Shown here piece after piece: positions 3,244 to 54,627 of a stretch of DNA of 64,000 nucleotides. Source of the DNA: Bdellovibrionota bacterium (GTDB lineage: Bacteria; Bdellovibrionota; Bdellovibrionia; Bdellovibrionales; JAEYZS01); the NCBI GenBank assembly GCA_040386775.1, contig JAZKEU010000008.1:169184-233183 (forward strand). Reading direction: 5' to 3'. A model generated the notes under the pieces. It saw only the letters and a list, made by a program, of their open reading frames with translations. It was not told the origin of the DNA and did not search any database. The first letter of the stretch is position 1, and the number at the start of each line of letters is the position of its first letter. Made by a program: the position numbers and the translations under genes.

Positions 3244-4908
3244 TTAGCTCGCTTTAGAGGAAACTGCTGCCACGGCGCTGGGAATTTCGAAAATGAAGCG
3301 CGTTTCATTTTCTGTGGCGCTTTCTGCCCAAATTGATCCTTTGTGATGTTCTATAATTTCTTTGCAAATTGGAAGACCGAGTCCTGTTCCTCCGGAACCA
3401 TTTTGAGTTCTACTGCTCTGAGCAAACTTATCGAAGATCAATTGAAGTTCTTCAGCAGGTATTCCTACACCTTTATTTGAAATAGAGCATCTGACTTTTT
3501 CATGTAAGAGTTCTACTTTGATTTGTATAGCTGTATTTTTTGTAGAAAATTTTATTGCGTTTGAAAGTAGATTGCGTATTACTTGCATGAGTCGGTCGGA
3601 ATCAAAAATTGCAAATGCTGATTCTTCAGAAATTTCGATTCGCAATCCTTTTTCACTGGCAAAAGCACTCATCTCTGAACTCACGATTCGAGCCATATTC
3701 AGAAGATCGCCCTCTGAGTACGAGTAAGTCATCTTTCCTGACTCCATCTTTGCGAGATCAAGGAGATCATTGAGTAGCGACATCAATCTCGAACCACTAT
3801 CATAAATTTCATCAAAATAACTTTTCAGTTTTTCTTTAGAGCTTTGTTCAATCTTTTGCTGTCCAAAGCGTGCAAAACTCAAAATGCCATGCATCGGAGT
3901 TCTAAGCTCGTGAGACATGTTGGCTAGAAACTCCGACTTGGCTCGATTTGCTCTTTCTGCAATTTCTCTTTCGGCCTTTAATTTATCGATATTTTTTATT
4001 TCATTGAGAGCGTTTTGGAGTACTGAGCTTTGTCTTTCCAATTCTAAGGTTCGTGCTTTTACTTTATTTTCTAAATTTTCGTTCAATTCTTCCAATTGTG
4101 AAGTTGTTTTTTGTAAGCGAAGAAATATTGATGAAAGAGCAAACACTAAGAATGCACAAATAAAAATGAGTGCTGCACGATAGTATGATGCAATTTTTTC
4201 TTCATGAGAGAACCATTTTAAATATTTACTTTCTAAGCCATGAATTGCTTTTTTAACACGGTCTGAAAGAATTTCGACTTCAAGCGTCTGACGAGCTCTT
4301 GCCTGATTTGTAACAGTATCAGTATGAAAAATAAAATTTTTAATGATTTCTACATTTGCTTTACTCAAAGAAGATGTTTTTCGTAGATCGTCGAGATGAA
4401 ATTGAATTTCTTTAACAAGTTCATCTCTTGGGTTTAAACTATATCGATAGGTCTCATTGAGCAAAATTTCTATTTTTGCTCTCAAGCCAGAAGGCTTTAC
4501 TTGTTTTGCGAGAACGGGTAGGTACCTAATCGAACTTTTCAATACCGAATTTCTAGATTTGAATTGCTCGATATTTAAAGCTTTGAGTTGGATTGCCTCA
4601 CAATAAGTGTTAATAGATTCTAATAACTCAAGACTCTCATATGTCCTTTGCAGTCCTTCACAAATATGCTTTGATCGATTGATATTTTTCACCACTGAAT
4701 CGTAATTTTCTAAAACAAAAGTTCTAAGGCGCAAGATATCTTCATTCAATTTGTGATCAATATTTTTCAATTCACTTAAAGTAGAAAGAGTATTGTGTCG
4801 GCTTTCTAAGCTTTCTTCTTTTGATTTATTTGTAGTAAACACCATCACAGCAAGTGTTATAAGTATAACAATTAAATACAAATTACTTTTACTTGCTATT
4901 TTCGCCAC
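3244..4908 (-). CDS. membrane sensor histidine kinase (orphan, no adjacent response regulator)
   Basis: Two TM segments flank a ~220-aa extracytoplasmic region, followed by a coiled coil. H-box SHELRTPMHGI, N-box LLSNAIKFS and G-box GTGLGLPICKEI are present. The start overlaps the upstream peroxidase gene by 20 nt. Confidence 0.9.
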   Translation of the reverse strand: MAKIASKSNLYLIVILITLAVMVFTTNKSKEESLESRHNTLSTLSELKNIDHKLNEDILRLRTFVLENYDSVVKNINRSKHICEGLQRTYESLELLESINTYCEAIQLKALNIEQFKSRNSVLKSSIRYLPVLAKQVKPSGLRAKIEILLNETYRYSLNPRDELVKEIQFHLDDLRKTSSLSKANVEIIKNFIFHTDTVTNQARARQTLEVEILSDRVKKAIHGLESKYLKWFSHEEKIASYYRAALIFICAFLVFALSSIFLRLQKTTSQLEELNENLENKVKARTLELERQSSVLQNALNEIKNIDKLKAEREIAERANRAKSEFLANMSHELRTPMHGILSFARFGQQKIEQSSKEKLKSYFDEIYDSGSRLMSLLNDLLDLAKMESGKMTYSYSEGDLLNMARIVSSEMSAFASEKGLRIEISEESAFAIFDSDRLMQVIRNLLSNAIKFSTKNTAIQIKVELLHEKVRCSISNKGVGIPAEELQLIFDKFAQSSRTQNGSGGTGLGLPICKEIIEHHKGSIWAESATENETRFIFEIPSAVAAVSSKAS

Positions 4909-6051: not shown

Positions 6052-8238
6052 CTAGAGTCTTCCAAATGGAAATCCAATATTTGGAATTGTGTTTTGACCG
6101 TTCGTAGCCACTGGGAACTTCATGTCTTTAAAGATCGCAGTGACACATTTATTCAAGTTGTCGCCACTAGAAATATCTGATTTCTTAACCTTTGCCCACT
6201 GAACAGCACCTTTGGCCGAAATTTCCCATTCATATTCTACGCGACCTGCAAGTCCCGGAGTATCGATCAAAGATCTTTCATAACACTGTTGAATCTGAGT
6301 CATGTAGCGCTTCACAACGTCCATCACTTGCGATCTTGATAATCCATCCTCTTTTCCAAGACGAACCAAAGAAGGAGCACCAACAACAGTTCCGGCAACA
6401 GCTCTAGATCCAGCGGTTCCTTTTATCCCTTGAACACCGTATCCAGTTCCTGTTCCGTAACCTAAACCTTTTGTTTTAACAGAGGCTAATCCTCCTGCTG
6501 CTAATTTTCCAGACTTAGTTTTGAGTGTACCAATGACACCACCAGTGTTGAGGGCAGTTTGGCCCCCAGCATTTTTGTTGATGTTGATTGCAACTGGGAC
6601 ATCAGACGGCGGAGTGTTGGATGAAACGGCACTGAGTGCAGCAAGAGCTCCAACAGCTTGGATGTTTTTTACAACTGGTTTTTCTGCAACCTTCATGGGT
6701 TTTTCAACTTCTACTGGGTATTTGTTTACCTTCATGAGAAGTTTAGACTTCTGAAGTCTTACAACCTTTTTAGGCTTCGGTTGTTTTTCTACAATTTTCT
6801 TTTCTGGTTTTGGCTCTGGTTTTTTCTGAGCCACTTTTTCTTTTGGTGGTTCAGGTTTTTTCTCTTCTGGTGGTGGAGGAGGCGGTTTTTGCTCTATGAT
6901 AAGCCTCGCAACACGTTCTTGCATAATTTTTTGCGGAGATTCAGGTTCTTTTGTCTTTGTTAAAAAAATAACTGCGAGAATAAACATCTCAATTGCAGCG
7001 ATCACCATTCCTGGAGTTTTCATTTCCTCGTCTTTGATGAGACGCATTTGATTTGAAAGCTGCCTAGGAGCTGGAGCGTATCTTAAGTGAATAGATACAT
7101 CGGGAGTTAGTTTTACAGAAACAAGTTCTGCTGGACCTAGCTTTAAAGTATAGTAATTCTTCTTTCGGGTAACAGTGGGACTGAATGCAGACTCCTCAAA
7201 AGAGTAAGACTTTGATTCATTTTCGCTGACATAACTTTCTAAGGCAAATTGCAAATTCTGCGGAATAAATACTTGGGTATTCATTCCGTCAAACTTTGCA
7301 AGATTTAGATTTTTATTCAAGACGGGGATATCTACAGTTGCAGAGGATCCTGGCCCAATAATTACATCATCGCCAGCGTAGAATTGATGGAGATCATAAA
7401 TTTGATCTTTCCACGTCACATAACTTTCCAAAACTCGTTGCTGAGGTCGCAATTGCGCGGCTTGATGATGATAAGTCAATTTCTTTGGCGACTCTACTTT
7501 AGGGCGAGCACTGAAAGAAACATTCTTGGCAACGGCAGATTTTTCTTTTTTCTTTTTCGGTTTTACTTGGGAAACTGACGGTTCCTGCTCTTTGTATTTA
7601 AGATCTATCAGAGATTTATCTAAAGGTTTATGTTCACCATTGAAGTGAACCATCTGAGGAATAACGTCTTGAGCTTTTTTTGGAGTCGGACTGAAAGGAA
7701 TGCGAGCTTTTTCTTTAACTTCAGATTTTTCTTGATTGCCAAGTTTTTTTCCAAATTCTGCTTCCATATCTCTTTGATGAGTTTTTGCAGCGTCAACCAC
7801 TGGACAAGCAGCAGCTTTTGGTGGAGTTGGTCTTTTGTTCAGAAGTTCTCTCACTGGAGTTTTTTCATCTTCAGGATCATAAGCTTCAACCACAGTCGGT
7901 TGATCTTCGAGAGGTCTTTCAAGTTGTAATTGAATTAAAATTTCTCCAATTTCGACTTGTGAAGAATTTAAGATGATCGCTTGCTTAACTCTCTTTCCTT
8001 CAAAGAAAATTCCATTGGAACTGTCCAAGTCAGAAACTTCGATGACACCATCATCTGTAACGCTGATTGAGCAGTGTTGACGAGACAAGAAATCAAAATT
8101 CTGTAGTGGAATATCACACTTCGAGCTACGACCTAAAGTGATCGGGCATTCATTGAATACATGCTCAAAAACTATTTCCCCTTTGTGAGAAATAGAGACT
8201 ACTAAAGGATTGGGTAAACTTTTACGATTGTTCATCAC
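6052..8238 (-). CDS. FHA-domain / TM / Pro-Lys linker / AgmX-PglI (TonB-C-like) C-terminal domain protein, GltG(PglI)-like
   Basis: N-terminal FHA pattern (ITLGRSSKCDIPL...SRQHCSI...DLDSSNGIFFEGKRV) and one TM (GMVIAAIEMFILAVIFL). A TonB-like PPPPPPEEKKPEPPKEK linker follows. The C-terminus LSRSQVMDVVKRYMTQIQQCYERSL...GRVEYEWEI...KCVTAIFKDMKFP matches the AgmX/PglI C-terminal domain as I recall it. Confidence 0.7.
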   Translation of the reverse strand: MMNNRKSLPNPLVVSISHKGEIVFEHVFNECPITLGRSSKCDIPLQNFDFLSRQHCSISVTDDGVIEVSDLDSSNGIFFEGKRVKQAIILNSSQVEIGEILIQLQLERPLEDQPTVVEAYDPEDEKTPVRELLNKRPTPPKAAACPVVDAAKTHQRDMEAEFGKKLGNQEKSEVKEKARIPFSPTPKKAQDVIPQMVHFNGEHKPLDKSLIDLKYKEQEPSVSQVKPKKKKEKSAVAKNVSFSARPKVESPKKLTYHHQAAQLRPQQRVLESYVTWKDQIYDLHQFYAGDDVIIGPGSSATVDIPVLNKNLNLAKFDGMNTQVFIPQNLQFALESYVSENESKSYSFEESAFSPTVTRKKNYYTLKLGPAELVSVKLTPDVSIHLRYAPAPRQLSNQMRLIKDEEMKTPGMVIAAIEMFILAVIFLTKTKEPESPQKIMQERVARLIIEQKPPPPPPEEKKPEPPKEKVAQKKPEPKPEKKIVEKQPKPKKVVRLQKSKLLMKVNKYPVEVEKPMKVAEKPVVKNIQAVGALAALSAVSSNTPPSDVPVAININKNAGGQTALNTGGVIGTLKTKSGKLAAGGLASVKTKGLGYGTGTGYGVQGIKGTAGSRAVAGTVVGAPSLVRLGKEDGLSRSQVMDVVKRYMTQIQQCYERSLIDTPGLAGRVEYEWEISAKGAVQWAKVKKSDISSGDNLNKCVTAIFKDMKFPVATNGQNTIPNIGFPFGRL

Positions 8239-8266
8239 TTAAATTATCGGAGGAAGTGTAAGGTTA

Positions 8267-11200
8267 TTAAAGCCTTACACTTCGAACAAATGGATGAACT
8301 GGACTGGACGGTGATCCTGATCTCTTTGCTTTTTCGATGGCACTACCGACTTTGGATTTGAAATCAAATTCTTTGTAGAGAGCGGCGATACCCCAAGCCG
8401 CTGTTGGCTGACCTGGACTGAGTTTCTGAGCTTTCTTGAAAGCATCAAAAGCCAACTCCAGATTATTCATAAACATATAGTTTGTGCCCTTAAGAGCCTG
8501 AGCGGGTGCAAAAGTCGGCTGAATTTCCAAGATCCGATCACAGATCAACACCGACATAGAATAATCTCTTCCTTCCGCATAAGTTTGCGCAAGTTTTAAG
8601 AGGATATCTGGGTTTCTAGATTCATCATAAAGTTTTTTACGAATTTGGAATGTTTGCGGTGGAGTGCTATCAGCCGCAGAGACTAGCAATTGAGTTTCTG
8701 ATTCTTCGTCCACCATGATCTGTCCGCCGGATTGACAACCTTTTACAAAATTTGTGAAAACATCAAACTTTTCAGCAGTCTTCACGCATTCACTAAAGAA
8801 CTTGTTTGCGTTTGCTTCGTAAGTTTTGGCTTGTCCTGCAATGGCTGCCTTATACTGGTTCACTTGATCTGGAGTAAGTCCTGGAGGCATCGGAGCTCTT
8901 TTAATAAAGTCCGCAAACTCTTTATTCACTTGTCCTAAACCATAAAGGGCGGCGATGGACCATCTTCCGTTTCCACTCGTGATCACTTGATTCAATTGAT
9001 TTGTAAGTGTTGTGAGGATCTTTGTTTTAGCTTGAACAGCTTGAGCTTCTTTTCCAGATTCCAATTGAATTTCTTTATACTGCTTCATCGCTTCCATAGA
9101 AAGAAGGTAAAGCGCATGAGCTCTCCAAGTTTTCTCTTCGAAAGAACCACCTTTGTTCGCGGCTGTTTGTCTTAAGAAATTTTGAGCAGTTCCAATGTTA
9201 TTCAATCTGTAAGCTGCAATACCCATATAGTAAGACCCCTGCATGCCTCCCACAGATTTTGCCGAGCCAATCAACTTTGACCATTGGTTGGCACTGAAGT
9301 CTGATCTTGCCACCGCAGTACGATCGCCAAGCTCCAAATAATCTTTTCTCGCTTGTTCAAAGTCGCCCATAGTTTCTCTCATCTGAGCTGCATTTTGAAG
9401 AAGCTTTCTACTTTCAGGATCTTTTGGATATTTGTTCGAGTAAATTTCAAAGTATTTTGCCGCTCTTCTAAAATCAGCCGTAAGTAGCGAGAGTTTACCC
9501 ATTTCCATGGTCACTTCTTTTGCATATTTTGAGTTACCATGTTTGATCAATAATTCTTCACCAGGAATGTATGCCCCAGGATCTTTTTTAGATTTTAAAG
9601 AGTTAAAAGCTTCAAATAAAGCTCTATCTCCAAGATTCGTGCCTTTGTACTTTTCTGCGAATTTTAAAAGTTCTTTTGAATAATTGTCAGAAGAAAAATC
9701 AGCAATCGAAGTCTGGATATTTTTGTATTCCGACTGGTTCATAATATCTGAAACCATTTTCTTGAGAGATCCCGACAAAGCTTTGATTCCAATGATTTTT
9801 TTACCAGCAACCGTCAAACCTTTATAATCTTCTCTTTGGTTGTAAGCATCTAAGATCAGATCCACAGAAGTGGCTGCGTCTTTTCCATTTGGAAATTTAG
9901 TGATGTATTGGAACAATACTCTTTCCGATCCTTTAAAATCACGCTCATCATAGTAAGACCTACCAGCATTAAATATAATCGAAGGAACAGCACCTTCTGT
10001 TGGATAAGACTTTACATAGTAGAGTCCCACATCTCGGATGCCATTTCTGGCTTGTGCTAATTGAGTTCTGTTCAGGGCTTCTGGATTTTTAAGAGCTGCC
10101 GTATATGATTCGATACTTGAATCCAAATACGATTTTCTTTTTATTGGAACTTTAATTTCTTTGGCTAACTTCTCGTACTCTTTACCGGCGTTCACGAATT
10201 CTTTTAAGTTAAAATAACTTTCTGCCAAGTTTAGGCGAATGGCATTAGAATATTTTTCTCCATTCTTGTTTCCATTCCCAAAAGCCCACAGGTAAGCTTT
10301 GTAAGCCGAGATCGCAAGTCTATAGTCTGAAGGACTGCGCGTGGATCTTGCACGCACTTGAGCTCTAGTCGCCGCATCTCTGGCGTAGATTTCAAAGTTC
10401 TTATCGTGCTGGAATTTCATTTTTGGAGCCACATCTGGAGAATAACGAACCTGGTTGATCGTATCAGCTACGATTTCCGTGTAACCATAAACCGGCCAAT
10501 CTTTTAATGAGTTCTTCATGGCTTCGTAGAGTCTTTCCACAGCTTCAATTCTTAATTCTACGTTCTTGGTCATCTTTAAGAGTTCAAAGTAGATTTTTGT
10601 CGTTTGAATGTATCTTTGCTTAACGCCTAGACGTCTCCCTAAGCGAGCCAATGCTCTTTGATATGAGATTTTATTATTCGAAAGTCCTTTAAAGTACTCC
10701 ACAGGCTCCACTCTGTTTTTGCCCATTTTCTTAAGGACTACCGGTGGAATTTCGCTATATGGCCAAGCCATAGCAACCAGAGCATCACGCTTAACATCTG
10801 TTTTTCTGTAAATTTCTGGAAGTTTAGATGTATCGATCTTTGCATCGGTAGTTAGGATTTGTTCAAACGAAAGAAGCGAATCTAGGAATTTCCCTTGGTT
10901 GATGTAAATCCATCCCAATTTATATCTTGCAAGAGGAACAAAAGGATTGTCTCTTAAATTGATAACCCGTTTAAAATAACCAATGGCACTCTCTAATTCT
11001 TTTTTCTCTTCAAAAAAGAAATTACCGATAATGATCAAACTCTCCGCATAAAAAGGGCTTTGCGGGTACTGTGAAATCAATTTTTGATAAGTTAAGATCA
11101 TCTCTTCGAATTGCCCCATCTCGCGATGTTCATGGGCCATAAAGAATAAAGCCTTATCCCTGTCTCTAAAATTTGGAAATTTTTCGATTAGTTTTTGGTA

Positions 11201-11533
11201 TGTCTCGATAGCAAAAAGCTTAGGACGTTTTTCATTTGCAAAATCCATTTCATCCAGCGGAGTCTTTTTATTCTTCATGACTTTAATGCTGTACATGTAA
11301 CGAGATTTATCTACGAATAATTCAGCAAGAACCAAATAGAGATCTGGAAGGAAATTGGCATCTCTAATGGTTTTAATTCTATCTTGAGTAGTTTTAATCG
11401 AAAGCTCAATCTTTTTAAGATCAGATTCAAGCTCCGCTAAACTTTTTTGCTTCATCAACTGGGCATTAGAAGTTAGAGAAAAAAGTACCAAGAGGGCAGT
11501 AAGTATGATTTTTTTGATCATTTGGTGGATCAT
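8267..11533 (-). CDS. large exported TPR-repeat protein (GltD/AgmU-like candidate)
   Basis: 1088 aa with a signal peptide (MIKKIILTALLVLFSLTSNAQ) and many TPR-like A/Y/L-periodic helices. The ATGA overlap with the upstream gene (11530-11533) implies translational coupling. The Glt assignment rests on context only. Confidence 0.6.
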   Translation of the reverse strand: MIHQMIKKIILTALLVLFSLTSNAQLMKQKSLAELESDLKKIELSIKTTQDRIKTIRDANFLPDLYLVLAELFVDKSRYMYSIKVMKNKKTPLDEMDFANEKRPKLFAIETYQKLIEKFPNFRDRDKALFFMAHEHREMGQFEEMILTYQKLISQYPQSPFYAESLIIIGNFFFEEKKELESAIGYFKRVINLRDNPFVPLARYKLGWIYINQGKFLDSLLSFEQILTTDAKIDTSKLPEIYRKTDVKRDALVAMAWPYSEIPPVVLKKMGKNRVEPVEYFKGLSNNKISYQRALARLGRRLGVKQRYIQTTKIYFELLKMTKNVELRIEAVERLYEAMKNSLKDWPVYGYTEIVADTINQVRYSPDVAPKMKFQHDKNFEIYARDAATRAQVRARSTRSPSDYRLAISAYKAYLWAFGNGNKNGEKYSNAIRLNLAESYFNLKEFVNAGKEYEKLAKEIKVPIKRKSYLDSSIESYTAALKNPEALNRTQLAQARNGIRDVGLYYVKSYPTEGAVPSIIFNAGRSYYDERDFKGSERVLFQYITKFPNGKDAATSVDLILDAYNQREDYKGLTVAGKKIIGIKALSGSLKKMVSDIMNQSEYKNIQTSIADFSSDNYSKELLKFAEKYKGTNLGDRALFEAFNSLKSKKDPGAYIPGEELLIKHGNSKYAKEVTMEMGKLSLLTADFRRAAKYFEIYSNKYPKDPESRKLLQNAAQMRETMGDFEQARKDYLELGDRTAVARSDFSANQWSKLIGSAKSVGGMQGSYYMGIAAYRLNNIGTAQNFLRQTAANKGGSFEEKTWRAHALYLLSMEAMKQYKEIQLESGKEAQAVQAKTKILTTLTNQLNQVITSGNGRWSIAALYGLGQVNKEFADFIKRAPMPPGLTPDQVNQYKAAIAGQAKTYEANANKFFSECVKTAEKFDVFTNFVKGCQSGGQIMVDEESETQLLVSAADSTPPQTFQIRKKLYDESRNPDILLKLAQTYAEGRDYSMSVLICDRILEIQPTFAPAQALKGTNYMFMNNLELAFDAFKKAQKLSPGQPTAAWGIAALYKEFDFKSKVGSAIEKAKRSGSPSSPVHPFVRSVRL

Positions 11534-13149
11534 TTGAATTCCTCCCCAAACTGCTTGATGATTCCCTCATCTCCAGATGATGATGGCATTGATTGATCAC
11601 ACTGACTGCGAATAAGAACTTGGTAATCGTCTAGTTCATCAATCCAATATTCATCTTCCACGGGCCAGTAAACCTTGTCGAATTTAACGTAAGAAATTTT
11701 TTCTGACTGATAATTTCTTTCTTCACCTTTACGGACAATTCTTAGTGCATCTAGTTTTGCTGTGTAATCCAAAAACTTGACTTGTTCTTCAGAATCTAGA
11801 ATTTCTTCTGAAACCAATGGATAGACTTGGTCCATAAAAAGATAAAGTCTTTTTTGAATTTCTTGATCTTTATTTTTGTAATTGTTTTCGATCTCTTTAA
11901 AGTATTTATAATCTTTGAGATCCATTTCTTTAACGATCTCTAATTCATCCCTCAATTGATTGATGAAGTTTGCTTGTTCTTGCATTCTCATGCTCGACAT
12001 CGCAAGTTGAGATGTAACAACGTTCTTCTTAAGATCTTGGCGCTTTTTAATGTCTTTGATCGCCTTGCCAAATACGGTGTAATATTCTTTTGCCACTGAG
12101 CTTACTTTTTCGAAGTAACAAAGCTGCTTATAAATGATCATCTCTAGAACATAGCGTTCAGGAGATACAGAAACCATATAGACAGGAGCTTTTAAACCTT
12201 GAAGAATGCCGAGACTTTCAGAATAATTTTTCAAATAATAATTGGACCAAGCTCTCTCAAGAAGTATTCTTCCTTTTTCACGCTGCGGAAAATCTTTGAG
12301 TTCTTTGTACATATTTGCAGCTTTAGTAAAATCTTTTCTTTCAAAACTGATTCTCGCAATTTGCAGATTGGCTCTTTTCTTGAGTTTAGCAGCAAGATTT
12401 GGATTCTGAGAAATTCGAGAAAGTCTTGCTTCCGCTTCGTCCAATTTATTCTGGGTGATTTCATTTAAAGCTTTCAAGTACTGAGTTTTTTGTGACCAGT
12501 AAGATTGGCTTTTGACTTGAGCCGCCTCAATCTTTGACCAGTCTTTAAAACCGTTGATCAAATCACTCATAGAAACATAGTAGCTGACAAAACTTTGGAT
12601 ATCCGGATGAAGGGTGCCAAACTCATTGCTGTTCAAAAAGTCATCGACCATATCGACTGGATCGAGATAGGATTCTTGATCAATCAAGGCCAATTCGTAG
12701 AGAGCTTTAGACGCAAGTTCTGATGAAATTCTTTTTAGAGCAACTTCCTTTAAAACCATAGTTGCAGCATAGTAAAGCTTCATGTGGCGAAGGGCGATAC
12801 CGACGGCGAGCAGTCCTTCGATACCATCGTCAGAATCCACTCCATAATCTTCCTGAAGTTCCAAGCCATCTTCGATAAGTTTGATATAACTTTCATCTCC
12901 CAAGCGTTCTTCTACAATTTTCCAATATTCCGGATCAATGGGCTCATACTTGTATGGCTTTTCCATTTTATCCTGAAAAGGAACTGCCGTCGTAGATTTA
13001 CCAGACGGAATATTTTGCGCCGTCAGCTTCAATGATCCCACTGTTAAACCAACAAGGATAATCAAAGAAATGGCTACAGTATATTTACTACTTAGCAAAT
13101 TCTTTTTCAAAATCATCTTCTTCGCCTTGTGTTTTCTCTTTCGAGTCAA
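11530..13149 (-). CDS. exported helical/TPR-like protein (GltC/GltE-like candidate)
   Basis: 539-aa ORF with an N-terminal anchor/signal (an alternative start is M12 at 13116). TPR-like segments such as FTKAANMYKEL and LLERAWSNYYLKNYSESL are present. It is in an operon with the flanking genes. Confidence 0.5.
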   Translation of the reverse strand: MTRKRKHKAKKMILKKNLLSSKYTVAISLIILVGLTVGSLKLTAQNIPSGKSTTAVPFQDKMEKPYKYEPIDPEYWKIVEERLGDESYIKLIEDGLELQEDYGVDSDDGIEGLLAVGIALRHMKLYYAATMVLKEVALKRISSELASKALYELALIDQESYLDPVDMVDDFLNSNEFGTLHPDIQSFVSYYVSMSDLINGFKDWSKIEAAQVKSQSYWSQKTQYLKALNEITQNKLDEAEARLSRISQNPNLAAKLKKRANLQIARISFERKDFTKAANMYKELKDFPQREKGRILLERAWSNYYLKNYSESLGILQGLKAPVYMVSVSPERYVLEMIIYKQLCYFEKVSSVAKEYYTVFGKAIKDIKKRQDLKKNVVTSQLAMSSMRMQEQANFINQLRDELEIVKEMDLKDYKYFKEIENNYKNKDQEIQKRLYLFMDQVYPLVSEEILDSEEQVKFLDYTAKLDALRIVRKGEERNYQSEKISYVKFDKVYWPVEDEYWIDELDDYQVLIRSQCDQSMPSSSGDEGIIKQFGEEFK

Positions 13150-13795
13150 ATTGATAAGTGTAAGCTGCGCCTATGAATAAGAAAGGTTCCACTCCCGTGC
13201 TTAAGAACGGAAGGTTTTCTCTAATATCAATTTTGATGGATTCCTTGTCGTTTAAGAAAAATCTAAGAATTGCTCCACCATTCACGAGAGGTTTTACGCC
13301 ATCGTTCTTGAATGAACCTACTCCCGGTCCTGCGACAAAGGTGATATCTCCCCAAATTACAGATTTATTAAAGAGTAAGTTCTTATTGTAGATTGGCGTA
13401 TAAACTATATTTGTCGTAATGTACCACTCAGGAAAATCTGGAATTTGTCCTGGATCTGCCGCGAATTCTTCGGTCAATTGTTTTTTTAAATCTGTATCAA
13501 TGCTCATAACCCAATTGGCGTTGATCACTTCCCAGCCGGTAAAATCAGAAAAATATTTCGTGTAGGAAGCTCCGAGGACAACACCTTTGGTAAAAGAATC
13601 CATCGGCATATAACCTAAATGTGCCGAATATTGGCCACCCAATTTGTATTTGCGATTTTGAACTGCGTAGGTTTTTGGAACTGCAAAAATATCTTCCTCT
13701 GCTTCAGCAGCGATAACTTCTGAAGGTAAGAATGAAGAGACAAAAAGAGTTAAGAATATAAATAAGTAAACACTAAGAAAGCCTAGCCACTTCAT
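13088..13795 (-). CDS. small outer-membrane beta-barrel protein (GltA/GltB-like candidate)
   Basis: AAGGAAGGA SD and a signal peptide ending VIAAEA. Alternating aromatic/aliphatic beta-strand pattern with a terminal strand AAYTYQF followed by an acidic tail. First gene of the operon. Confidence 0.45.
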   Translation of the reverse strand: MKWLGFLSVYLFIFLTLFVSSFLPSEVIAAEAEEDIFAVPKTYAVQNRKYKLGGQYSAHLGYMPMDSFTKGVVLGASYTKYFSDFTGWEVINANWVMSIDTDLKKQLTEEFAADPGQIPDFPEWYITTNIVYTPIYNKNLLFNKSVIWGDITFVAGPGVGSFKNDGVKPLVNGGAILRFFLNDKESIKIDIRENLPFLSTGVEPFLFIGAAYTYQFDSKEKTQGEEDDFEKEFAK

Positions 13796-13927: not shown

Positions 13928-14461
13928 CTAGAGAATTAATCGCTTTAATTCTTGCTGAGAATAAACGTAGTCCGCATAGATCATCGTATTCATGACATTT
14001 CGATGACCTAATGCTACCTGCACAAGTCGAATGTCTCTTGTTTTTTTATATATTTGAATAGCAAAAGTATGTCGCAAACAATGAAATTTCTTAGGAACAG
14101 GACGATAGAATTCCCAAATTTGCCTTAAGCGAGAATAACTGATTGGAAAAAGAAGTTGCGTGTCTTGTTGGTCAGAATATTTTTTAAGGAGGCGAAATAC
14201 GTCATTTTTAAGTGGAATCTCTCGATCATTGCTTCCTTTGATTCCGCGGATGAGAATGGATTCTTCATAGGTATTTATATCTACTTTTTTAAGATTTAAA
14301 AGCTCTTGAGCTCGCGCGCCAGTTTTCAAGGCGAGTCTTAGAAGCAGGCAATTTCTCGTGTCCGTGTCCATGTAAGAGTCGAGAAGAGAATTGAGTTTTT
14401 CTAACTCAGGTTCCAGAAGATATTTATTCTTATTGAGAGAGTAACGGGTAGACGTTGCCAT
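13928..14461 (-). CDS. minimal (catalytic-domain-only) tyrosine recombinase
   Basis: 177 aa containing the full R-K-H-R-H-Y set: TGARAQELLNL, IKGSNDREIPL, HCLRHTFA, LGHRNVMNTMIYADY. There is no N-terminal core-binding domain. GAGG SD lies 8 nt upstream. Confidence 0.88.
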   Translation of the reverse strand: MATSTRYSLNKNKYLLEPELEKLNSLLDSYMDTDTRNCLLLRLALKTGARAQELLNLKKVDINTYEESILIRGIKGSNDREIPLKNDVFRLLKKYSDQQDTQLLFPISYSRLRQIWEFYRPVPKKFHCLRHTFAIQIYKKTRDIRLVQVALGHRNVMNTMIYADYVYSQQELKRLIL

Positions 14462-14704
14462 AGTGTGTGCCTCAAAATTATGCTTTCAATTTGCCTCGCG
14501 AGTCCGAATTTCCCTTTTTCGAAAAACAACCTTTTTGAGGTCATTTCTAATCATCATACCTATTTAAATAGTAATTACAAGTACTTAATACTATAACTTA
14601 TAACTATAATATGTAGTTTAAATTGAAAAACAGCATACTTGGCTATGGTTTTGCCATAAATACGAGTAAAAACATATAGTTATATATATTTTGAATTAAA
14701 AATT

Positions 14705-14767
14705 GTGAAACACAATATTAAAATGCGTAAATCACAATATCAATTGCTTATTTCACAACATTAAAAT
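14705..14767 (+). repeat. three phased direct repeats CACAAYAT(T/C)AA(AA)T, period 21-22 bp
   Basis: CACAATATTAAAAT at 14711, CACAATATCAATT at 14733 and CACAACATTAAAAT at 14754. Copies 1 and 3 match 13/14. The extended 14-mers GTGAAACACAATAT and GTAAATCACAATAT match 12/14. Confidence 0.6.
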
Positions 14768-14772
14768 ATGCT
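14744..14772 (+). promoter_or_regulatory. candidate sigma70-type promoter for the HTH gene
   Basis: TTGCTT (14744-14749), a 17-nt spacer, then TATGCT (14767-14772), about 48 nt upstream of the ATG at 14820. Repeat copy 3 lies inside the spacer. Confidence 0.35.
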
Positions 14773-14819
14773 TTTTCTCGTGAATGAGATTTTTTAATCT
14801 CTAGAAAGGCGGCCCTCAG

Positions 14820-15473
14820 ATGGAACAATTAGAATCTATTCGGTTGAAACTTGGTTTATCTAGACGACAAATTTGTAAACTTTTAAAAGTAGATCCTTCG
14901 GCGTGGACCCGTTGGATGAAAACTCCTCAAGGAGCACCCGCACACATCCATCAATCACTTGAATGGTATATGAAATTAGTAGAACAAAATCCTGAACAGA
15001 ATGCGCCTCAGCTTCTCGCACAGAAGTTCGAATCTTCAAATAAAGAATCAGAAATCCAGCTTTCTCGCATAAAAAGAGAAGTCGAAACCCTACGTCGTGA
15101 TAATTTAGAAAAAAGGGAAGTGTTCGAGCAGCTGGGTGGGAAGATTCAGAACTCTTTTGAAAATATTCTTTTGAAATTCAGAGACCAGATGATTCCATTA
15201 AAAATGATGGAAGTGGACTCACTTAAATATGAAAATAAGAAGCTCCAAAGCACGATTCAAGATTTAGAGAAAAAAATGGATCAACTTTTTACTAAACTTT
15301 CAACAGAATCAAAAACAGTCTCTTTGAAAATAAAACCTAAAAAGAAGAAAACATTTAAGAAAAAAAAGAAGTCTCTCAAAAAATCTTTCAAAAAAACCAA
15401 GTCCATTAAGAAAGCCAAATCAAAGATTAAGACTTCTAAGAAGGCTAAAAGAAAACTCAAAAAAACTAGATGA
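14820..15473 (+). CDS. XRE/MqsA-like HTH protein with coiled coil and polylysine C-terminal tail
   Basis: The N-terminus LGLSRRQICKLLKVDPSAWTRWMK...LEWYMKLVEQNPE resembles YiaG/MqsA-type HTH domains. The central region is heptad-rich. The last ~50 aa are K-rich (KPKKKKTFKKKKKSLKKSFKKTKSIKKAKSKIK). Confidence 0.55.
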   Translation: MEQLESIRLKLGLSRRQICKLLKVDPSAWTRWMKTPQGAPAHIHQSLEWYMKLVEQNPEQNAPQLLAQKFESSNKESEIQLSRIKREVETLRRDNLEKREVFEQLGGKIQNSFENILLKFRDQMIPLKMMEVDSLKYENKKLQSTIQDLEKKMDQLFTKLSTESKTVSLKIKPKKKKTFKKKKKSLKKSFKKTKSIKKAKSKIKTSKKAKRKLKKTR

Positions 15474-15480
15474 TATACTT

Positions 15481-17514
15481 CTAGTTACATGGAACAGATT
15501 CTTTTACGACAGATCCTGAATATCCTGCGGCTCCAGAAGAACCACCGCTCGAAGAGATGCCTCCGCTACCACCATTCAACTGAAGATTGAGCAGGGCAGA
15601 GGTCACAGGTATTGTCGATGTATTGCAACCGATGATATGGACTCTGCCTCCGCCGCCACCGCCGCCGCCAGATCCATTTGTCGCAGCACCAGACACAAGA
15701 CCACCATTTCCACCGTAAGCTTGAATATCCATTTGTGCTGTTCCGGGAGCAGTAAAGTTTTGGAACCCGAGAAGAGTTGATCCTCCAGCACCACCACCAC
15801 CAGATCCATAATTTGCGTAGGAGGAGTTGGACTGTCCGTCATCACCATTGTTACTAATAATTACGTTAGCATTTGTATCTACATTCAAGTTTTTTGCCAT
15901 AATATAAATTATACCGCCACCAGATCCGCCAGTACTTGCTAAGCTATTGATGCTACTTCCACCAGCACCACCCATAAATATTTTGTGTGTTAAAAATCCA
16001 AAGCAAGATCCATCACCGCAATCATCACCAACACCTTGGCCACCAATTTGCGCTCCACCTCCGCCTGTGCCACCACTTCCAGAGTAAGGCGAAGCTGTGC
16101 CGATAGGATTTCCATGTCCGCCACCACCGGCGCCTCTAGCATCAGGAGAACAGCTTCCTCCAGATCCTGTATCCGTTGGACTTGCTACACAAGTTAGAGA
16201 AGAGGCTCCTCTTGTACCGCTACCGTGACGAGTCGAATTTCCCATATAGCCTGTACCATTTCCATCAATGATAGCGCCATCTAACATAGTTAAATTGTTT
16301 GCAACACGGATTGGTAAAATACCAGAATTTCCCATATTGAGTTCAAACATATCTGGAGCAATGCTCACTCCATTATTTATAGTCAGATTATAAAAGTGAA
16401 GTACTTTTGAAACTCTCATTTTACAAAAATCATTAGCGGGATCAGGTGTTGCCCCAATGTGAGCTACGATTGCAGATTTTAGAGTTGGATCAAAAGCACT
16501 GATTGCAGGATTCCAATCCAACTTATCAAAGAATGTTCCTTTGGAAATATAAATCCCATAGTTGGGAGTCGAAGTGACTGCCACCACTCGACCAAATTGA
16601 TAACGCCCATCCCAGGCACGATATCCACAAGGACCGATGGTAGGAACACCATTAAGCACAGTCCATGCACCAGATTGACCTTGAATCGTTAACATCACTT
16701 CATCGTCAACCGCAATGCCCGAAGGAAAAGCGGAAGTTTGGATAAACGTATAAGCTTCGTTGGGATTTGCAGGTTGAGTATTAAAATTTGTAACCTGAAA
16801 TGAAGCACCACCTAGGCCTGAGTAAGTTGTGCTTGTACTGATTGTATCTGTACCATCTGCAATAGTTTTATCTCCGAAATAAAGCGGAGCATGTTCAAAG
16901 TTAAAATCGGGCCCAGAGCAATCATCAATTTTTAATGTTGTAGCATTCACTGTGACAGGAACCGTAACAGCTACGCTTCCAGGAGAAAGATCTTTAATTA
17001 TTTTTCCCAAAATATGTGGTTCTGAGAGCGACAATCCACTGACATCAGTAGTTTTAAAATTTGTGCAAGCTCCGGCGGTGGCTTTGAATCCAACTATCGT
17101 GATTTCCCTTTGAGATCCAGAAGGAACTTCAAGGGAGAGGGTAGCGCCTGCGGCGATACCGCCGACAAAACGACCCACTTTTAAATTTTGTCCAGTGGTT
17201 GTAACACAGGTATTTCTGCTCATATCAGATTCTGGGCCTGAAACAGCGATCATATAACAATTCACATCAGCAATGGTTTCGGGATTGAGAGATGAGTTCC
17301 ACTCCGCACCGTTATCTTCACTTTGCACAGAAACGCTCTGCATGCTCATAGGTTCTGAGTATTTAAATTCTGTTATTTTAGAACTCATTCCAGCGGGCAA
17401 TGAAATCTGAAGGATAGAGCTATCCTGAACTTTTCTGCTACAGCTTGTATTGAATAGAATTACAAACGCAGAAATTACGAATAAAAATAAAACCTTATTT
17501 TTAGATAAGTTCAT
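15481..17514 (-). CDS. glycine-rich (predicted beta-solenoid) surface lipoprotein
   Basis: The start is moved to M44 (MNLSKNKVLFLFVISAFVILFNTSCS, signal plus Cys). The C-terminal half is made of GGxGG/GSGGG runs interleaved with short hydrophobic strands (GGSGGGIIYIMAKNLNV, GGGGGGGGRVHIIG). It ends 7 nt from the convergent HTH gene. Confidence 0.6.
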   Translation of the reverse strand: MNLSKNKVLFLFVISAFVILFNTSCSRKVQDSSILQISLPAGMSSKITEFKYSEPMSMQSVSVQSEDNGAEWNSSLNPETIADVNCYMIAVSGPESDMSRNTCVTTTGQNLKVGRFVGGIAAGATLSLEVPSGSQREITIVGFKATAGACTNFKTTDVSGLSLSEPHILGKIIKDLSPGSVAVTVPVTVNATTLKIDDCSGPDFNFEHAPLYFGDKTIADGTDTISTSTTYSGLGGASFQVTNFNTQPANPNEAYTFIQTSAFPSGIAVDDEVMLTIQGQSGAWTVLNGVPTIGPCGYRAWDGRYQFGRVVAVTSTPNYGIYISKGTFFDKLDWNPAISAFDPTLKSAIVAHIGATPDPANDFCKMRVSKVLHFYNLTINNGVSIAPDMFELNMGNSGILPIRVANNLTMLDGAIIDGNGTGYMGNSTRHGSGTRGASSLTCVASPTDTGSGGSCSPDARGAGGGGHGNPIGTASPYSGSGGTGGGGAQIGGQGVGDDCGDGSCFGFLTHKIFMGGAGGSSINSLASTGGSGGGIIYIMAKNLNVDTNANVIISNNGDDGQSNSSYANYGSGGGGAGGSTLLGFQNFTAPGTAQMDIQAYGGNGGLVSGAATNGSGGGGGGGGRVHIIGCNTSTIPVTSALLNLQLNGGSGGISSSGGSSGAAGYSGSVVKESVPCN

Positions 17515-17787
17515 TATAAAACCCCAATGACGTTCCATTATGCTGTTAATACTACTTATCGGAAGTTTTGAAGGTTGAACTTTAAGAACTCTTAATATCG
17601 TTTTGATACGTATTTTTATGGAACTTGAGTGCTTTTTAAGCATTTTTTAAGCTCTGCATCTACTCGTAATGTAACGTTTGAATTTCATGAATTTAAGTGA
17701 TTACATGACTCCTCAAACTGTTCTTTAAGTGTGGCCGAATACTAGCCACCATATGTTTTACAGAAATGTTTATGGAGTACCTAAAAT

Positions 17788-19039: not shown

Positions 19040-19591
19040 TTAAGCTTGAAGTCTCATAGATCTCAACCAGGCATTAAAAGAATTTAAGTAAGAAAGCCTT
19101 TCTTGATATCCTTTTCTAGATTCTAAGCGATTAGCTTCAAAATAACCTTTTAATTGAAATAACTCATAACTCGATTGAATCACTCTAGTGAATGCTAAAC
19201 CATCCCAGAACTTTCCAAACTTAAACCCCTTCCTAGCTCCCGTTACTTTTCTTGCAATCATGGCCGTGGTTGATTTTAGAAACTTCTGAAATCCTATTCT
19301 TGAATGTGGTTTTACCTTTAAATGAAGATGATTTCCCATGTTTACGTAATCAGTAATCTCTACGCCATGCTTTGAGGCTTGTTTTCTTAGGATGTATTTC
19401 ACTTGTGTCATATTTTTAGGATGAGAGAGGCTTAAGGGACCTTTGGCTTTCTTAGATTTCAAAACCAAATGAGACCACTTTTTGGTGGAAATAGGACGAG
19501 CGGTTTTTCTTTTACCTTCGGTAAGGCCTCCGTGAGATTTTTTATTAGAAACATTAAGATTTTTAAGAAAATTTGTTTGTGTTGATTTCAT
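19040..19591 (-). CDS. IS200/RAYT-like Y1 HUH transposase-fold protein (solitary)
   Basis: HUH motif NHLHLKV, then FWDGLAFTRVI and the Tyr region LKGYFEANRLE, in the order typical of Y1 transposases/REP-associated tyrosine transposases. The start is set at the ATG at M13, because the ORF-track start is TTG. Confidence 0.5.
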   Translation of the reverse strand: MKSTQTNFLKNLNVSNKKSHGGLTEGKRKTARPISTKKWSHLVLKSKKAKGPLSLSHPKNMTQVKYILRKQASKHGVEITDYVNMGNHLHLKVKPHSRIGFQKFLKSTTAMIARKVTGARKGFKFGKFWDGLAFTRVIQSSYELFQLKGYFEANRLESRKGYQERLSYLNSFNAWLRSMRLQA

Positions 19592-19714
19592 ATGGGGCAA
19601 TATAATAAATTTGACAAAAAATTTCAAGGATCATTATAAAAAAATGCAATGAGTTATTGAGTTTCTGGCTACGATGGCTAGCAGATAGAGGGTTCACAAT
19701 ATTATTTGTGGATC

Positions 19715-54505: not shown

Positions 54506-54627
54506 TACACATTACTGATAAGTTATATTATGTTACACAATGAGTTAGTATGTAGTTGATTTTACTATGATCCTCACGTAAATTTTAATGAACAGGCGAA
54601 ATCTTAAAATACCTCAGCAAGGATCAT

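What the first reader, a model, noticed from the sequence alone, without database searches (positions are those of the whole stretch)
13928..14461. Catalytic-domain-only tyrosine recombinase wedged between a motility operon and an accessory cassette
The 177-aa product has every catalytic residue of the tyrosine recombinase family (R in TGARAQEL, K in IKGSNDR, HxxR in HCLRHT, H in LGHRN, Y in MIYADY). It has essentially no N-terminal core-binding domain and is even shorter than FimB/FimE-type invertases. It is not next to a tRNA and no phage genes are nearby. It is followed by an unusually long (358 bp) AT-rich non-coding region with several repeat sets. Candidate roles are a DNA invertase/phase switch, a cassette or shufflon-type recombinase, or a remnant integrase. 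A 10-bp inverted repeat TATAACTATA (14599-14608) / TATAGTTATA (14675-14684) brackets 66 bp, but its AT-rich composition makes it weak evidence.
Basis: partly seen in the sequence, partly recalled or inferred. Interest (0 to 1): 0.55.

Follow-up and report, generated by a model that had tools for sequence, protein, structure and literature searches.

The report
Terminus-linked mini tyrosine recombinase module

Summary
ORF 13928-14461 (-) is a complete tyrosine-recombinase catalytic domain with no core-binding domain.

**The suggested roles do not hold.** It is not an invertase, a cassette or shufflon enzyme, or a decaying remnant.
- The 10-bp inverted repeat is at chance level (18% of shuffles).
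- Its second arm is not conserved.
- Its first arm is the core of a real element: a 28-bp site (14590-14617) with two inverted 11-bp arms around TAGTTA.

**What the comparisons show.**
- About 73 of 83 related loci carry exactly one such site, 76-400 bp upstream of the gene in most of them.
- A divergent XRE-HTH/coiled-coil partner gene is adjacent in 75 of 84.
- In one genome pair a phage-like element carrying a 41%-identical mini-integrase is inserted exactly at the site's centre, so this is a genuine crossover site.
- The protein is as conserved as a neighbouring dehydrogenase (67% against 72%).
- More distant family members lie in phage genomes.
- The canonical XerCD-type dif lies 40 kb away here, 3.5-6 kb away in four other lineages, and the gene sits at 0.49-0.50 of seven Bdellovibrio chromosomes.

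**Best reading (about 0.4):** an auxiliary, Xer-like, terminus-linked intermolecular recombination system that phages also use as an attachment site. No description of the family was found in the searched literature.

The parts
13928..14461 (-). Mini tyrosine recombinase gene: 177 aa, catalytic domain only, predicted nucleophile Tyr162.
   Evidence: PF00589 matches at E=2.7e-24 over residues 14-164. R50, K75, H127, R130, H153 and Y162 are invariant in 30 homologues. AlphaFold2 pLDDT is 88.5 and Foldseek matches Xer, P2 and HP1 catalytic domains.
14590..14617 (-). 28-bp core recombination site. Read in the gene's sense it is ACTACATATTA-TAGTTA-TAAGTTATAGT: two inverted 11-bp arms around an asymmetric 6-bp spacer. 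128 bp separate it from the ATG.
   Evidence: About 73 of 83 loci carry one such site. The position-weight-matrix score is 31.8 bits here, and the next best in 64 kb is 5.0. The arms covary symmetrically (55 double changes against 20.6 in shuffles). The prophage junction in L002 versus L003 falls at the left edge of TAGTTA.
14495..14508 (.). Conserved box CTCGCGAGTCCGAA (TTCGGACTCGCGAG on the gene strand) between the site and the recombinase start codon. Role unknown; possibly a promoter or operator of the recombinase gene.
   Evidence: 12 of the 14 bases are identical in the window, L004, L005 and L006, while the flanks diverge.
14699..14762 (.). Three direct repeats of 21-22 bp carrying TCACAA/TTGTGA motifs, next to the partner gene's start. 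Likely operators or accessory binding sites for the HTH partner.
   Evidence: family D1, spacing 22 and 21. TTTCACAA/TTGTGAAA motifs are conserved at the same place in distant loci.
14820..15473 (+). Divergently transcribed partner protein, 217 aa: an N-terminal XRE-type HTH (LGLS.R..LL.VDPSAWTRW), a coiled coil and a Lys-rich tail. Orthologues in Bdellovibrio end in a transmembrane helix instead.
   Evidence: Adjacent and divergent in 75 of 84 loci. Weak HTH_31/HTH_3 hits in 10 of 14 members.
14462..14819 (.). Shared 358-bp AT-rich control region that holds the site, the repeats and both divergent promoters.

Best explanation
**What it is**
A chromosomally fixed, single-site, site-specific recombination module with three parts:
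- a catalytic-domain-only tyrosine recombinase;
- its 28-bp dif-like core site, which lies in its own upstream region;
- a divergent XRE-HTH/coiled-coil partner gene, whose probable binding repeats sit beside the site.

**Proposed mechanism**
- One recombinase monomer binds each inverted 11-bp arm.
- Two occupied sites synapse as a tetramer.
- Tyr162 cleaves at the borders of the 6-bp spacer TAGTTA.
- Strands are exchanged through a Holliday junction.
- There is only one site per locus and its spacer is asymmetric. The partner site must therefore be on another DNA molecule or a sister copy, so the outcome is fusion or resolution, not inversion.
- The partner protein probably regulates both promoters. 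It may also supply the DNA-binding or architectural function that the missing core-binding domain normally gives.

**Shown here**
- The active site and fold are intact.
- Each locus has a single conserved site.
- A crossover at the centre of that site by a phage-like element that carries a paralogous mini-integrase.
- Conservation is at housekeeping level and the gene is inherited vertically.
- The module is physically linked to the canonical dif and the replication terminus.

**Inferred**
- The selected host role is an auxiliary, Xer-like resolution or unlinking of sister chromosomes in the terminus region. Phages exploit the same site as attB.
- I give about 0.8 to 'single-site intermolecular recombination module, not a switch'.
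- I give about 0.4 to the Xer-like host role.
For: **Enzyme**
-.

**Family and conservation**
- 1370 homologues were found; 113 of the best 120 are 173-182 aa, five more are 193-213 aa from longer start calls, and all are 65-100% identical.
- 151 clusters at 50% identity reach E<=1e-30, and most of the best 150 listed are 165-195 aa.
- The recombinase is 67% identical to the Bdellovibrio sp. NC01 protein, against 72% for the adjacent dehydrogenase compared with NC01 locus L001.

**Site**
- The consensus is ACTAAAGCTTA-TAGTTA-TAAGCTTTAGT, found upstream of the gene in about 73 of 83 loci.
- Each locus has one site: median 36 bits, against -2.5 for the runner-up and never above 9.9.
- The arms covary symmetrically, with 0 of 500 shuffles reaching the observed value.
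- A metagenome-wide scan found genuine palindromic copies only next to the recombinase or its partner.

**Crossover**
- L003 (empty site) and L002 (occupied site) are 99.3% identical up to the T of TAGTTA. Beyond that point L002 carries more than 8 kb of phage-like DNA.
- That DNA encodes an integrase 41% identical to this protein over its whole length.

**Partner gene**
- Adjacent in 75 of 84 loci.

**Linkage to the terminus**
- A canonical dif-like 28-mer lies at window 54509-54536. Its 20-bp core matches the HD100 dif at 19 of 20 positions, against 0.01 expected by chance.
- The same motif lies 3.5-6 kb from the mini site in L044, L082, L208 and L215.
- The gene sits at 0.487-0.501 of the chromosome in 7 of 10 complete Bdellovibrio genomes.

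**Similarity to known enzymes**
- The best sequence and structure matches are the Xer enzymes XerA and XerH, and XerS and XerH are encoded next to their dif sites (PMC2731167).
Against: - A separate canonical dif exists, and XerC/XerD have been predicted in B. bacteriovorus. A second resolution system would therefore be redundant, and nothing here shows that it resolves dimers.
- Nothing here shows that this protein, rather than the phage's own paralogue, acts on the site.
- No catalytic-domain-only enzyme is known to synapse and recombine sites without host factors, other than the FimB/FimE type invertases.
- Genes diverge from the module instead of converging on it. Local GC skew shows no switch at it. 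It is near the terminus but not at it.
- Linkage to the terminus could be inherited gene order rather than a functional need.
- A few loci have the site and the partner gene but another gene where the recombinase should be (L225 and L237).
- The symmetric arms could partly come from template-switch 'correction' of quasi-palindromes rather than from selection.
Confidence: 0.4

Rival explanations
1. Domesticated or resident phage int-attP-repressor module. Its only real activity would be as the attachment site, and perhaps helper integrase or excisionase control, for temperate phages of Bdellovibrionota. It would have no role in chromosome maintenance. The host might keep it for lysogeny control or superinfection effects.
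For: - The gene-site layout, with the site in the upstream region of the recombinase gene, is the same in the L002 prophage and its own mini-integrase.
- Family members at 41-55% identity lie in phage genomes with terminase, SLT and many small ORFs.
- PHROGs places the protein in integrase families.
- A 38-kb viral contig, L168, carries a strong copy of the site (29.8 bits) with no recombinase in 12 kb.
- Extra genes sit beside the site in L066, L073 and L075.
Against: - Integrases stranded beside empty attachment sites normally decay. This one keeps an invariant active site in 30 aligned homologues, among 1370 homologues found, evolves as slowly as a metabolic enzyme, and has kept its neighbourhood and its linkage to dif across families.
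- The chromosomal site is a symmetric full site, not a hybrid attL or attR.
- No PADLOC defence family matches the protein.
Confidence: 0.3
2. Structure-specific nickase or binding protein. The palindrome would be used as an extruded hairpin or cruciform, or as an RNA hairpin in the 5' leader. The enzyme would then act like the recombinase-derived relaxases MpsA and TcpM, or purely as a regulator together with the HTH partner.
For: - Arm positions 4-7 change between close relatives yet stay complementary. 55 cells show compensatory double changes.
- MpsA of SGI1 is a tyrosine-recombinase-like protein proposed to act as an atypical relaxase, and it needs a separate small DNA-binding protein (PMC6414798).
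- The partner here is a separate DNA-binding protein.
Against: - A 12-13-bp stem is only one binding arm and cannot make a full recombination substrate.
- The L002/L003 junction shows ordinary duplex crossover at the spacer.
- No conjugation or rolling-circle genes are nearby.
- No Rfam family matches the region.
- The covariation has a mutational explanation, and it is equally expected if two copies of one protein bind the two arms.
Confidence: 0.1
3. FimB/FimE-like DNA invertase that flips a promoter-bearing segment bounded by the 10-bp inverted repeat.
For: - The architecture is catalytic domain only, as in FimB and FimE. There are weak NCBIfam hits to tyrosine-type DNA invertases, with the N-terminus aligning from profile position 2.
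- The 10-bp inverted repeat is present.
- A promoter-like TTGCCA-18-TATAGT overlaps the second arm.
Against: - The repeat is at chance level (178 of 1000 shuffles).
- The second arm is not conserved beyond the 99%-identical relative.
- No second site scores above 10 bits in any locus or anywhere in the 64-kb window.
- The orientation of the site relative to the gene is fixed in 23 of 24 exact matches.
- The scores against the invertase families are far below their cut-offs (43 against 222, and 35 against 221).
Confidence: 0.03
4. Integron-like or shufflon-like gene-capture platform, or simply a decaying remnant integrase.
For: - The recombinase gene is divergent from an adjacent site, as with intI and attI.
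- Occasional extra genes lie next to the site.
Against: - There are no attC-like repeats and no arrays.
- The integron-integrase models score far below their cut-offs (57 against 265).
- The gene is intact and under strong constraint, so it is not a remnant.
Confidence: 0.05

Closest known systems
Single-recombinase Xer systems: XerS/difSL of streptococci and lactococci, XerH/difH of Helicobacter and Campylobacter, and archaeal XerA
   Same: - One recombinase acts on one chromosomal site of about 28-31 bp, built from two inverted arms around a short spacer.
- The recombinase gene is encoded next to its site, as with XerS and XerH.
- The region is near the terminus.
- The site is exploited by integrative elements.
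- XerA and XerH are the best sequence and structure matches.
   Different: - This protein has no core-binding domain. It is 177 aa, against about 280-360 aa.
- Its scores are far below the Xer family cut-offs.
- The genome also carries a separate canonical XerCD-type dif.
- The site is near the skew and gene-orientation switch but not at it.
- There is a dedicated HTH/coiled-coil partner.
- Dimer resolution has not been shown.
FimB/FimE-type tyrosine DNA invertases
   Same: - Both are essentially a bare catalytic domain of about 200 aa or less, and both depend on other DNA-binding proteins.
- The N-terminus of this protein aligns from position 2 of the FimE model.
   Different: - Fim enzymes act on two inverted sites that flank a 314-bp switch. 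Here there is a single site, with no variation in orientation.
- The sequence scores are far below the family cut-offs.
P2/HP1-type phage integrases and their attP-int modules
   Same: - They are the best hits among cultured phages (30-33% identity), and Foldseek matches their isolated catalytic domains (TM about 0.7).
- Phage paralogues of this protein integrate at its site.
   Different: - P2 and HP1 integrases have arm-binding and core-binding domains. This family has neither.
- The chromosomal copy is immobile and vertically inherited.
SGI1 MpsA/MpsB (PMC6414798)
   Same: A tyrosine-recombinase-like catalytic protein works with a separately encoded small DNA-binding protein at a nearby site rich in inverted repeats.
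   Different: - MpsB resembles a core-binding domain and is co-transcribed with MpsA. Here the partner is an XRE-type HTH and is divergently transcribed.
- MpsA is proposed to be a relaxase on a mobilisable island.
- Here a duplex crossover is documented and no transfer genes are present.

Membership tests
Tyrosine recombinase superfamily (Pfam PF00589, Phage_integrase) | The whole-protein score exceeds the curated Pfam gathering threshold. | tested here: met
   86.3 bits against a cut-off of 27.1.
Tyrosine recombinase superfamily (Pfam PF00589, Phage_integrase) | The catalytic R-K-H-R-H pentad and the tyrosine nucleophile are present. | tested here: met
   R50, K75, H127, R130, H153 and Y162 are invariant in 30 homologues and align with the XerA and XerH active sites.
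Tyrosine recombinase superfamily (Pfam PF00589, Phage_integrase) | The protein has the catalytic-domain fold. | tested here: met
   The AlphaFold2 model has pLDDT 88.5. Foldseek gives probability 1.0 to XerH, XerA and the P2 and HP1 catalytic domains.
Simple tyrosine recombinases (Xer-like) in the sense of Smyshlyaev et al. 2021 | An N-terminal core-binding domain precedes the catalytic domain. | tested here: not met
   The Pfam match starts at residue 14, which is profile position 2. The model has no extra domain. Homologues are 173-181 aa (PMC8138268).
XerC/XerD/XerA/XerS equivalogs (NCBIfam) | The score reaches the curated cut-off of the family. | tested here: not met
   XerA 98 against 220, XerD 70 against 330, XerC 68 against 335, XerS 53 against 267.
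Chromosome dimer resolution (dif/Xer) systems | A single chromosomal site has two inverted arms of about 11 bp around a 6-8-bp spacer. | tested here: met
   An 11-6-11 site occurs once per locus.
Chromosome dimer resolution (dif/Xer) systems | The site lies at the replication terminus, where skew and gene orientation switch. | tested here: inconclusive
   The site is 3.5-40 kb from the canonical dif, and the gene is at 0.49-0.50 of 7 chromosomes. However, there is no skew or orientation switch at the site itself.
Chromosome dimer resolution (dif/Xer) systems | The system resolves chromosome dimers, and loss of it gives a segregation defect. | not testable with these tools
   This needs genetics in B. 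bacteriovorus.
FimB/FimE-type tyrosine DNA invertases | Two inverted recombination sites bound an invertible segment, and both orientations occur. | tested here: not met
There is one site per locus and the next best match is never above 10 bits. Orientation is fixed in 23 of 24 exact matches.
FimB/FimE-type tyrosine DNA invertases | The score reaches the NCBIfam subfamily cut-off. | tested here: not met
   43 against 222, and 35 against 221.
Integron integrases | The protein matches the IntI family model, and an attI site with attC-bounded cassettes is present. | tested here: not met
   TIGR02249 scores 57 against 265. No repeated sites or cassette arrays were found.
Phage or island integrase with attL and attR | The gene lies inside a mobile element bounded by hybrid attachment sites, and the element is variably present. 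| tested here: not met
   The neighbourhood is conserved (dehydrogenase, partner gene, dif) across lineages, and the site is a symmetric full site. Phage-borne paralogues do meet this feature.

The most novel reading that the evidence does not exclude
Bdellovibrio-like predators may carry a second recombination system linked to the terminus and independent of XerCD. It would be built from a core-binding-domain-less mini recombinase and a DNA-binding coiled-coil partner. That partner is membrane-anchored in some lineages and has a polybasic tail in others. The system would resolve or unlink sister chromosomes, or hold the terminus region in place, during their unusual growth as a multi-chromosome filament, before septation makes FtsK-activated XerCD available. 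Their temperate phages would have copied the enzyme in order to integrate at its site.
Probability: 0.25. Interest if true: 0.8.

Novelty: new variant of a known kind. Interest (0 to 1): 0.62.

Why it matters
**For recombinase mechanism.** If the enzyme is active, a 175-residue catalytic domain would be enough for site-specific integration or resolution when paired with a separate DNA-binding partner. That extends what is known about the minimal requirements of tyrosine recombinases, and it would offer a very small recombinase with a 28-bp site for engineering.

**For the biology of the predators.** A recombinase conserved across the lineage and linked to dif bears directly on an open question. 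These bacteria replicate many chromosomes in one filament and divide all at once. How they sort out and separate those chromosomes is not known.

**For annotation.** The work also defines a canonical dif motif for this group (nnTCTGATAA-GTWAYA-TTATGTWAC) and a phage attachment site. Both are useful for annotating these genomes and their prophages.

Tried and rejected
- **Sole Xer with the site as dif.** Rejected as stated. A separate canonical dif lies in the window and in four related loci, and XerC/XerD have been predicted in HD100.
- **GC-skew tests for a terminus at the site.** I used plain skew over the window, 5-kb flanks of 48 loci, and third-codon-position skew split by gene strand. 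All were uninformative or showed no switch.
- **Distance to dif in B. bacteriovorus.** My early estimate of about 85 kb assumed that strains HD100 and Bd5 are collinear. I withdraw it as unreliable.
- **Structured RNA in the gap.** No Rfam family matches, apart from a meaningless snoRNA hit at E=0.56.
- **Defence system.** No PADLOC hit.
- **Second site or invertible segment.** Position-weight-matrix scans found none. The core-like match at 4857-4868 has no arms.
- **Extending viral contig L168 to look for an integrase.** The scan returned the same stretch.
- **Phage relatives carrying the same site.** None within the fetched stretches, apart from L168. Most metagenome pattern hits were chance matches in AT-rich DNA.
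- **Split recombinase with a separate core-binding protein, as in MpsB.** The 129-aa ORF upstream of a distant phage homologue has no Pfam match.
- **Literature.** I found no paper on this family. Public records name it only 'site-specific integrase'.
Full report
**1. The observation**

ORF 13928-14461 on the minus strand encodes 177 residues.
- Pfam PF00589 matches residues 14-164, which are profile positions 2-167 of 172, at E=2.7e-24. The protein is therefore a catalytic domain with about a dozen extra residues at each end.
- R50, K75, H127, R130, H153 and Y162 align with the catalytic residues of XerA and XerH. They are invariant in an alignment of 30 homologues.
- An AlphaFold2 model has mean pLDDT 88.5. 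It superposes on XerH, XerA and the isolated catalytic domains of the P2 and HP1 integrases.
- The only tRNA in the window is 23 kb away, and no other tyrosine recombinase is encoded in the window.
- The left-hand neighbours resemble the gliding-motility proteins GltG and GltC and a myxobacterial-type outer-membrane barrel. Their scores are below the curated cut-offs.
- The 358-bp gap 14462-14819 has 28.5% GC and lies upstream of the gene.
A repeat at least as long turns up in 18% of dinucleotide shuffles of the gap.

**2. A conserved family, not a stray gene**

- A search of 5.8 billion proteins gave 1370 homologues. Of the best 120, 113 are 173-182 aa and five more are 193-213 aa from longer start calls. 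All are 65-100% identical, and the sources that name them call them Bdellovibrionota, Bdellovibrio or Pseudobdellovibrionaceae integrases.
- An exhaustive profile search found 151 clusters at 50% identity with E<=1e-30. Most of the best 150 listed are 165-195 aa.
- The recombinase is 67% identical to its Bdellovibrio sp. NC01 counterpart. The neighbouring amino-acid dehydrogenase is 72% identical to the one in NC01 locus L001. The recombinase therefore evolves about as slowly as a metabolic enzyme.
- Public records give it only generic names. I found no paper about it.

**3. The real site**

- K-mer counting on the upstream regions of 81 related loci brought out one motif. It is a 28-bp near-palindrome, ACTAAAGCTTA-TAGTTA-TAAGCTTTAGT, 76-400 bp upstream of the start codon in most loci and about 1.2 kb upstream where genes are inserted, in about 73 of 83 loci.
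- The window's copy is at 14590-14617. Read in the sense of the gene it is ACTACATATTA-TAGTTA-TAAGTTATAGT, with three mismatches between the arms.
The second arm overlaps a promoter-like -10 element and is not conserved beyond the 99%-identical relative.
- A position-weight matrix gives a median best score of 36 bits per locus. The runner-up has a median of -2.5 bits and never exceeds 9.9. In the 64-kb window the values are 31.8 and 5.0. There is one site per locus and no partner for an inversion.
- The asymmetric centre points the same way relative to the gene in 23 of 24 exact matches.
- Arm positions 4-7 differ between lineages but change on both arms together. There are 55 double-change cells against 20.6 in shuffles, and 0 of 500 shuffles reach the observed value. 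This fits two copies of one protein reading both arms. Template-switch correction of quasi-palindromes could contribute.
- A scan of the metagenome collection found genuine palindromic copies only beside the recombinase or its partner gene. The rest were chance hits in AT-rich DNA.

**4. Proof that it is a crossover site**

- Two genomes with identical recombinase proteins differ at this spot. L003 has the intact site. In L002 the 99.3%-identical sequence stops exactly at the T that begins TAGTTA, and more than 8 kb of phage-like DNA follows.
- The gene of that element nearest the junction encodes an integrase that is 41% identical to the window protein over all 177 residues. It has the site in its own upstream region, the same layout as the host gene.
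- More distant family members (41-55% identity) lie in phage genomes with terminase, lytic transglycosylase and strings of small ORFs. Their reading frames are also only about 175-190 codons long.
- Catalytic-domain-only enzymes therefore appear to serve as phage integrases in this group. The chromosomal gene is the vertically inherited member of the family.

**5. The partner gene and the control region**

- A divergent gene (14820-15473 here) is adjacent in 75 of 84 loci. The exceptions are truncated contigs or loci with insertions.
- Its product has a conserved XRE-type helix-turn-helix, LGLS.R..LL.VDPSAWTRW, with weak HTH_31/HTH_3 hits in 10 of 14 members, followed by a coiled coil.
- It then ends in one of two ways. 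In Bdellovibrio and Pseudobdellovibrionaceae it ends in a transmembrane helix. In the window's clade and some others it ends in a Lys/Arg-rich tail.
- Three direct repeats of 21-22 bp carrying TCACAA sit between the site and this gene (14699-14762). The same motif is conserved at that position in distant loci. They are probably its binding sites.
- A box, TTCGGACTCGCGAG, is nearly invariant (12 of 14 bases) upstream of the recombinase gene in the window's clade.

**6. Linkage to the terminus**

- In seven of ten complete Bdellovibrio chromosomes the gene lies at 0.487-0.501 of the sequence.
- Carnoy and Roten predicted a classical dif in B. bacteriovorus HD100, TCTTCTGATAAGTTATATTATGTAACGG, 6 kb from the GC-skew shift point. 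XerC and XerD are also predicted there.
- The window contains ATTACTGATAA-GTTATA-TTATGTTACAC at 54509-54536. Its core matches at 19 of 20 positions, against 0.01 expected by chance. It is 39.9 kb from the mini site, on the partner-gene side.
- The same motif, with at most two mismatches, lies 3.5-6 kb from the mini site in four other loci: L044, L082, L208 and L215. The order is conserved: dif, small lipoprotein, beta-propeller, TPR protein, dehydrogenase, partner gene, site, recombinase.
- By my own estimate, about 0.01 such matches are expected by chance in the 1.9 Mb of loci scanned.
- The module therefore belongs to the dif neighbourhood across this group, but its site is not the canonical dif.
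- Skew and gene-orientation tests show no switch at the mini site itself.

**7. Interpretation**

- *Shown:* an intact enzyme; a single symmetric core site with an asymmetric spacer; an actual crossover at its centre; a constant partner gene; slow evolution in a stable location near dif.
- *What follows:* the reaction must be intermolecular or between sister copies, giving fusion or resolution rather than inversion.
- *Known host functions of such an arrangement:* the only one I know of is resolution of replicon multimers, as with XerS/difSL and XerH/difH, whose genes also sit beside their sites. Integrative elements exploit those sites in a similar way, although IMEX elements use the host XerCD enzymes rather than an integrase of their own.
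- *Best explanation:* an auxiliary, Xer-like system of the terminus region. I put it at about 0.4, because a canonical dif/XerCD system coexists and no activity has been demonstrated.
- *Main rival (0.3):* a domesticated phage int-attP-repressor module whose only activity concerns phage integration.

**8. Novelty and score**

- The superfamily is known. The new elements are the CB-less enzyme of about 175 aa used both by phages and as a conserved chromosomal gene, the fixed three-part module, and the linkage to dif. I could find none of this described, so I rate it a new variant of a known kind.
- A recombination specialist would find a conserved, stand-alone catalytic domain with a defined 28-bp site worth testing. 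The possible link to chromosome handling in filament-growing predators makes an open question experimentally approachable.
- Interest: 0.62.

Noticed in passing
window 54509-54536 (+); also L044:1103-1130, L082 about 2289-2316 (-), L208 about 992-1019, L215 about 10505-10532 (-): A probable canonical XerCD-type dif, ATTACTGATAA-GTTATA-TTATGTTACAC, lies in an intergenic gap. Its core matches the dif predicted for B. bacteriovorus HD100 at 19 of 20 positions. The window therefore probably spans the replication terminus. The group consensus is nnTCTGATAA-GTWAYA-TTATGTWAC.
   Followed up: partly
L168:3854-3881 (IMGVR_UViG_3300047585_000028, 37.9 kb): A phage contig carries a strong copy of the mini site, ACTGTGACTTATAGTTATAAGTCTGAGT (29.8 bits), in a divergent intergenic region. 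No tyrosine recombinase is found in the 12 kb held. It may be an attP that depends on the host enzyme. The rest of the contig could not be fetched.
   Followed up: partly
L069:5803-5830 and L027:5758-5785: The flanks and arms keep the usual orientation, but the two to four central bases are the reverse complement of those in relatives (GGCT against AGCC, and AACT against AGTT). The centre of the site has been flipped on its own. The cause is unknown.
   Followed up: no
L237:479-506 and L225:244-271: Both metagenome contigs have the site, and L237 also has the partner gene. Another gene sits where the recombinase should be: a 743-aa Ser/Thr kinase on the opposite strand in L237, and a 401-aa ORF in L225. 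The recombinase may be lost or displaced in some lineages.
   Followed up: partly
L066:3862-5921, L073:1125-2323, L075:1232-5995: One to four unrelated genes (membrane proteins, a secreted 334-aa protein) are inserted between the site and either the partner gene or the recombinase gene. No second site is present. This may reflect local gene turnover or decayed insertions.
   Followed up: partly
window 14820-15473, compared with L001:6915-7616, L016:5028-5618, L057:525-1178: The partner protein has two alternative C-termini in different lineages: a single transmembrane helix or a long Lys/Arg-rich tail. The two may be interchangeable ways of tethering the protein to membrane or DNA.
   Followed up: partly
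window 19040-19627 (-): A 195-aa ORF has an IS200-like Y1 transposase domain (PF01797, E=1.4e-5). It may be a REP-associated or IS200/IS605-type tyrosine transposase. It lies 4.4 kb from the module and is unrelated to it.
   Followed up: no
window 370-1407 (+): A 345-aa ORF has a weak C-terminal match to the RNA-guided endonuclease IscB (NF040563, E=9.5e-8, well below the cut-off). The match covers only the HNH-like part.
   Followed up: no
window 6052-13795 (-): A run of genes resembles the Myxococcus gliding-motility proteins GltG and GltC, a 1088-aa TPR protein and an OMP_myx_plus barrel. All scores except the barrel's are below the equivalog cut-offs.
   Followed up: partly
window 15481-17643 (-): A 720-aa Gly/Ser-rich protein with a signal-like N-terminus lies immediately after the partner gene. 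It has no Pfam or PADLOC match, and its GC content is locally higher (0.46-0.47).
   Followed up: no
L090:5945-5973: A 50%-identical family member on a 175-kb 'viral' contig has its own palindrome 56 bp upstream, ACTGTGACTTCT-tcagg-AGAAGCCACAGT. The outer arms match those of the mini site but the centre differs. The gene-plus-upstream-palindrome layout may be general in the family.
   Followed up: no
L173:2801-2828 and L239:1375-1402: A perfect 28-bp palindrome with the same core, ACTCCTTGTTATAGTTATAACAAGGAGT, occurs in contigs with Firmicute-like genes. No recombinase or partner gene is nearby. It is probably an unrelated hairpin.
   Followed up: partly
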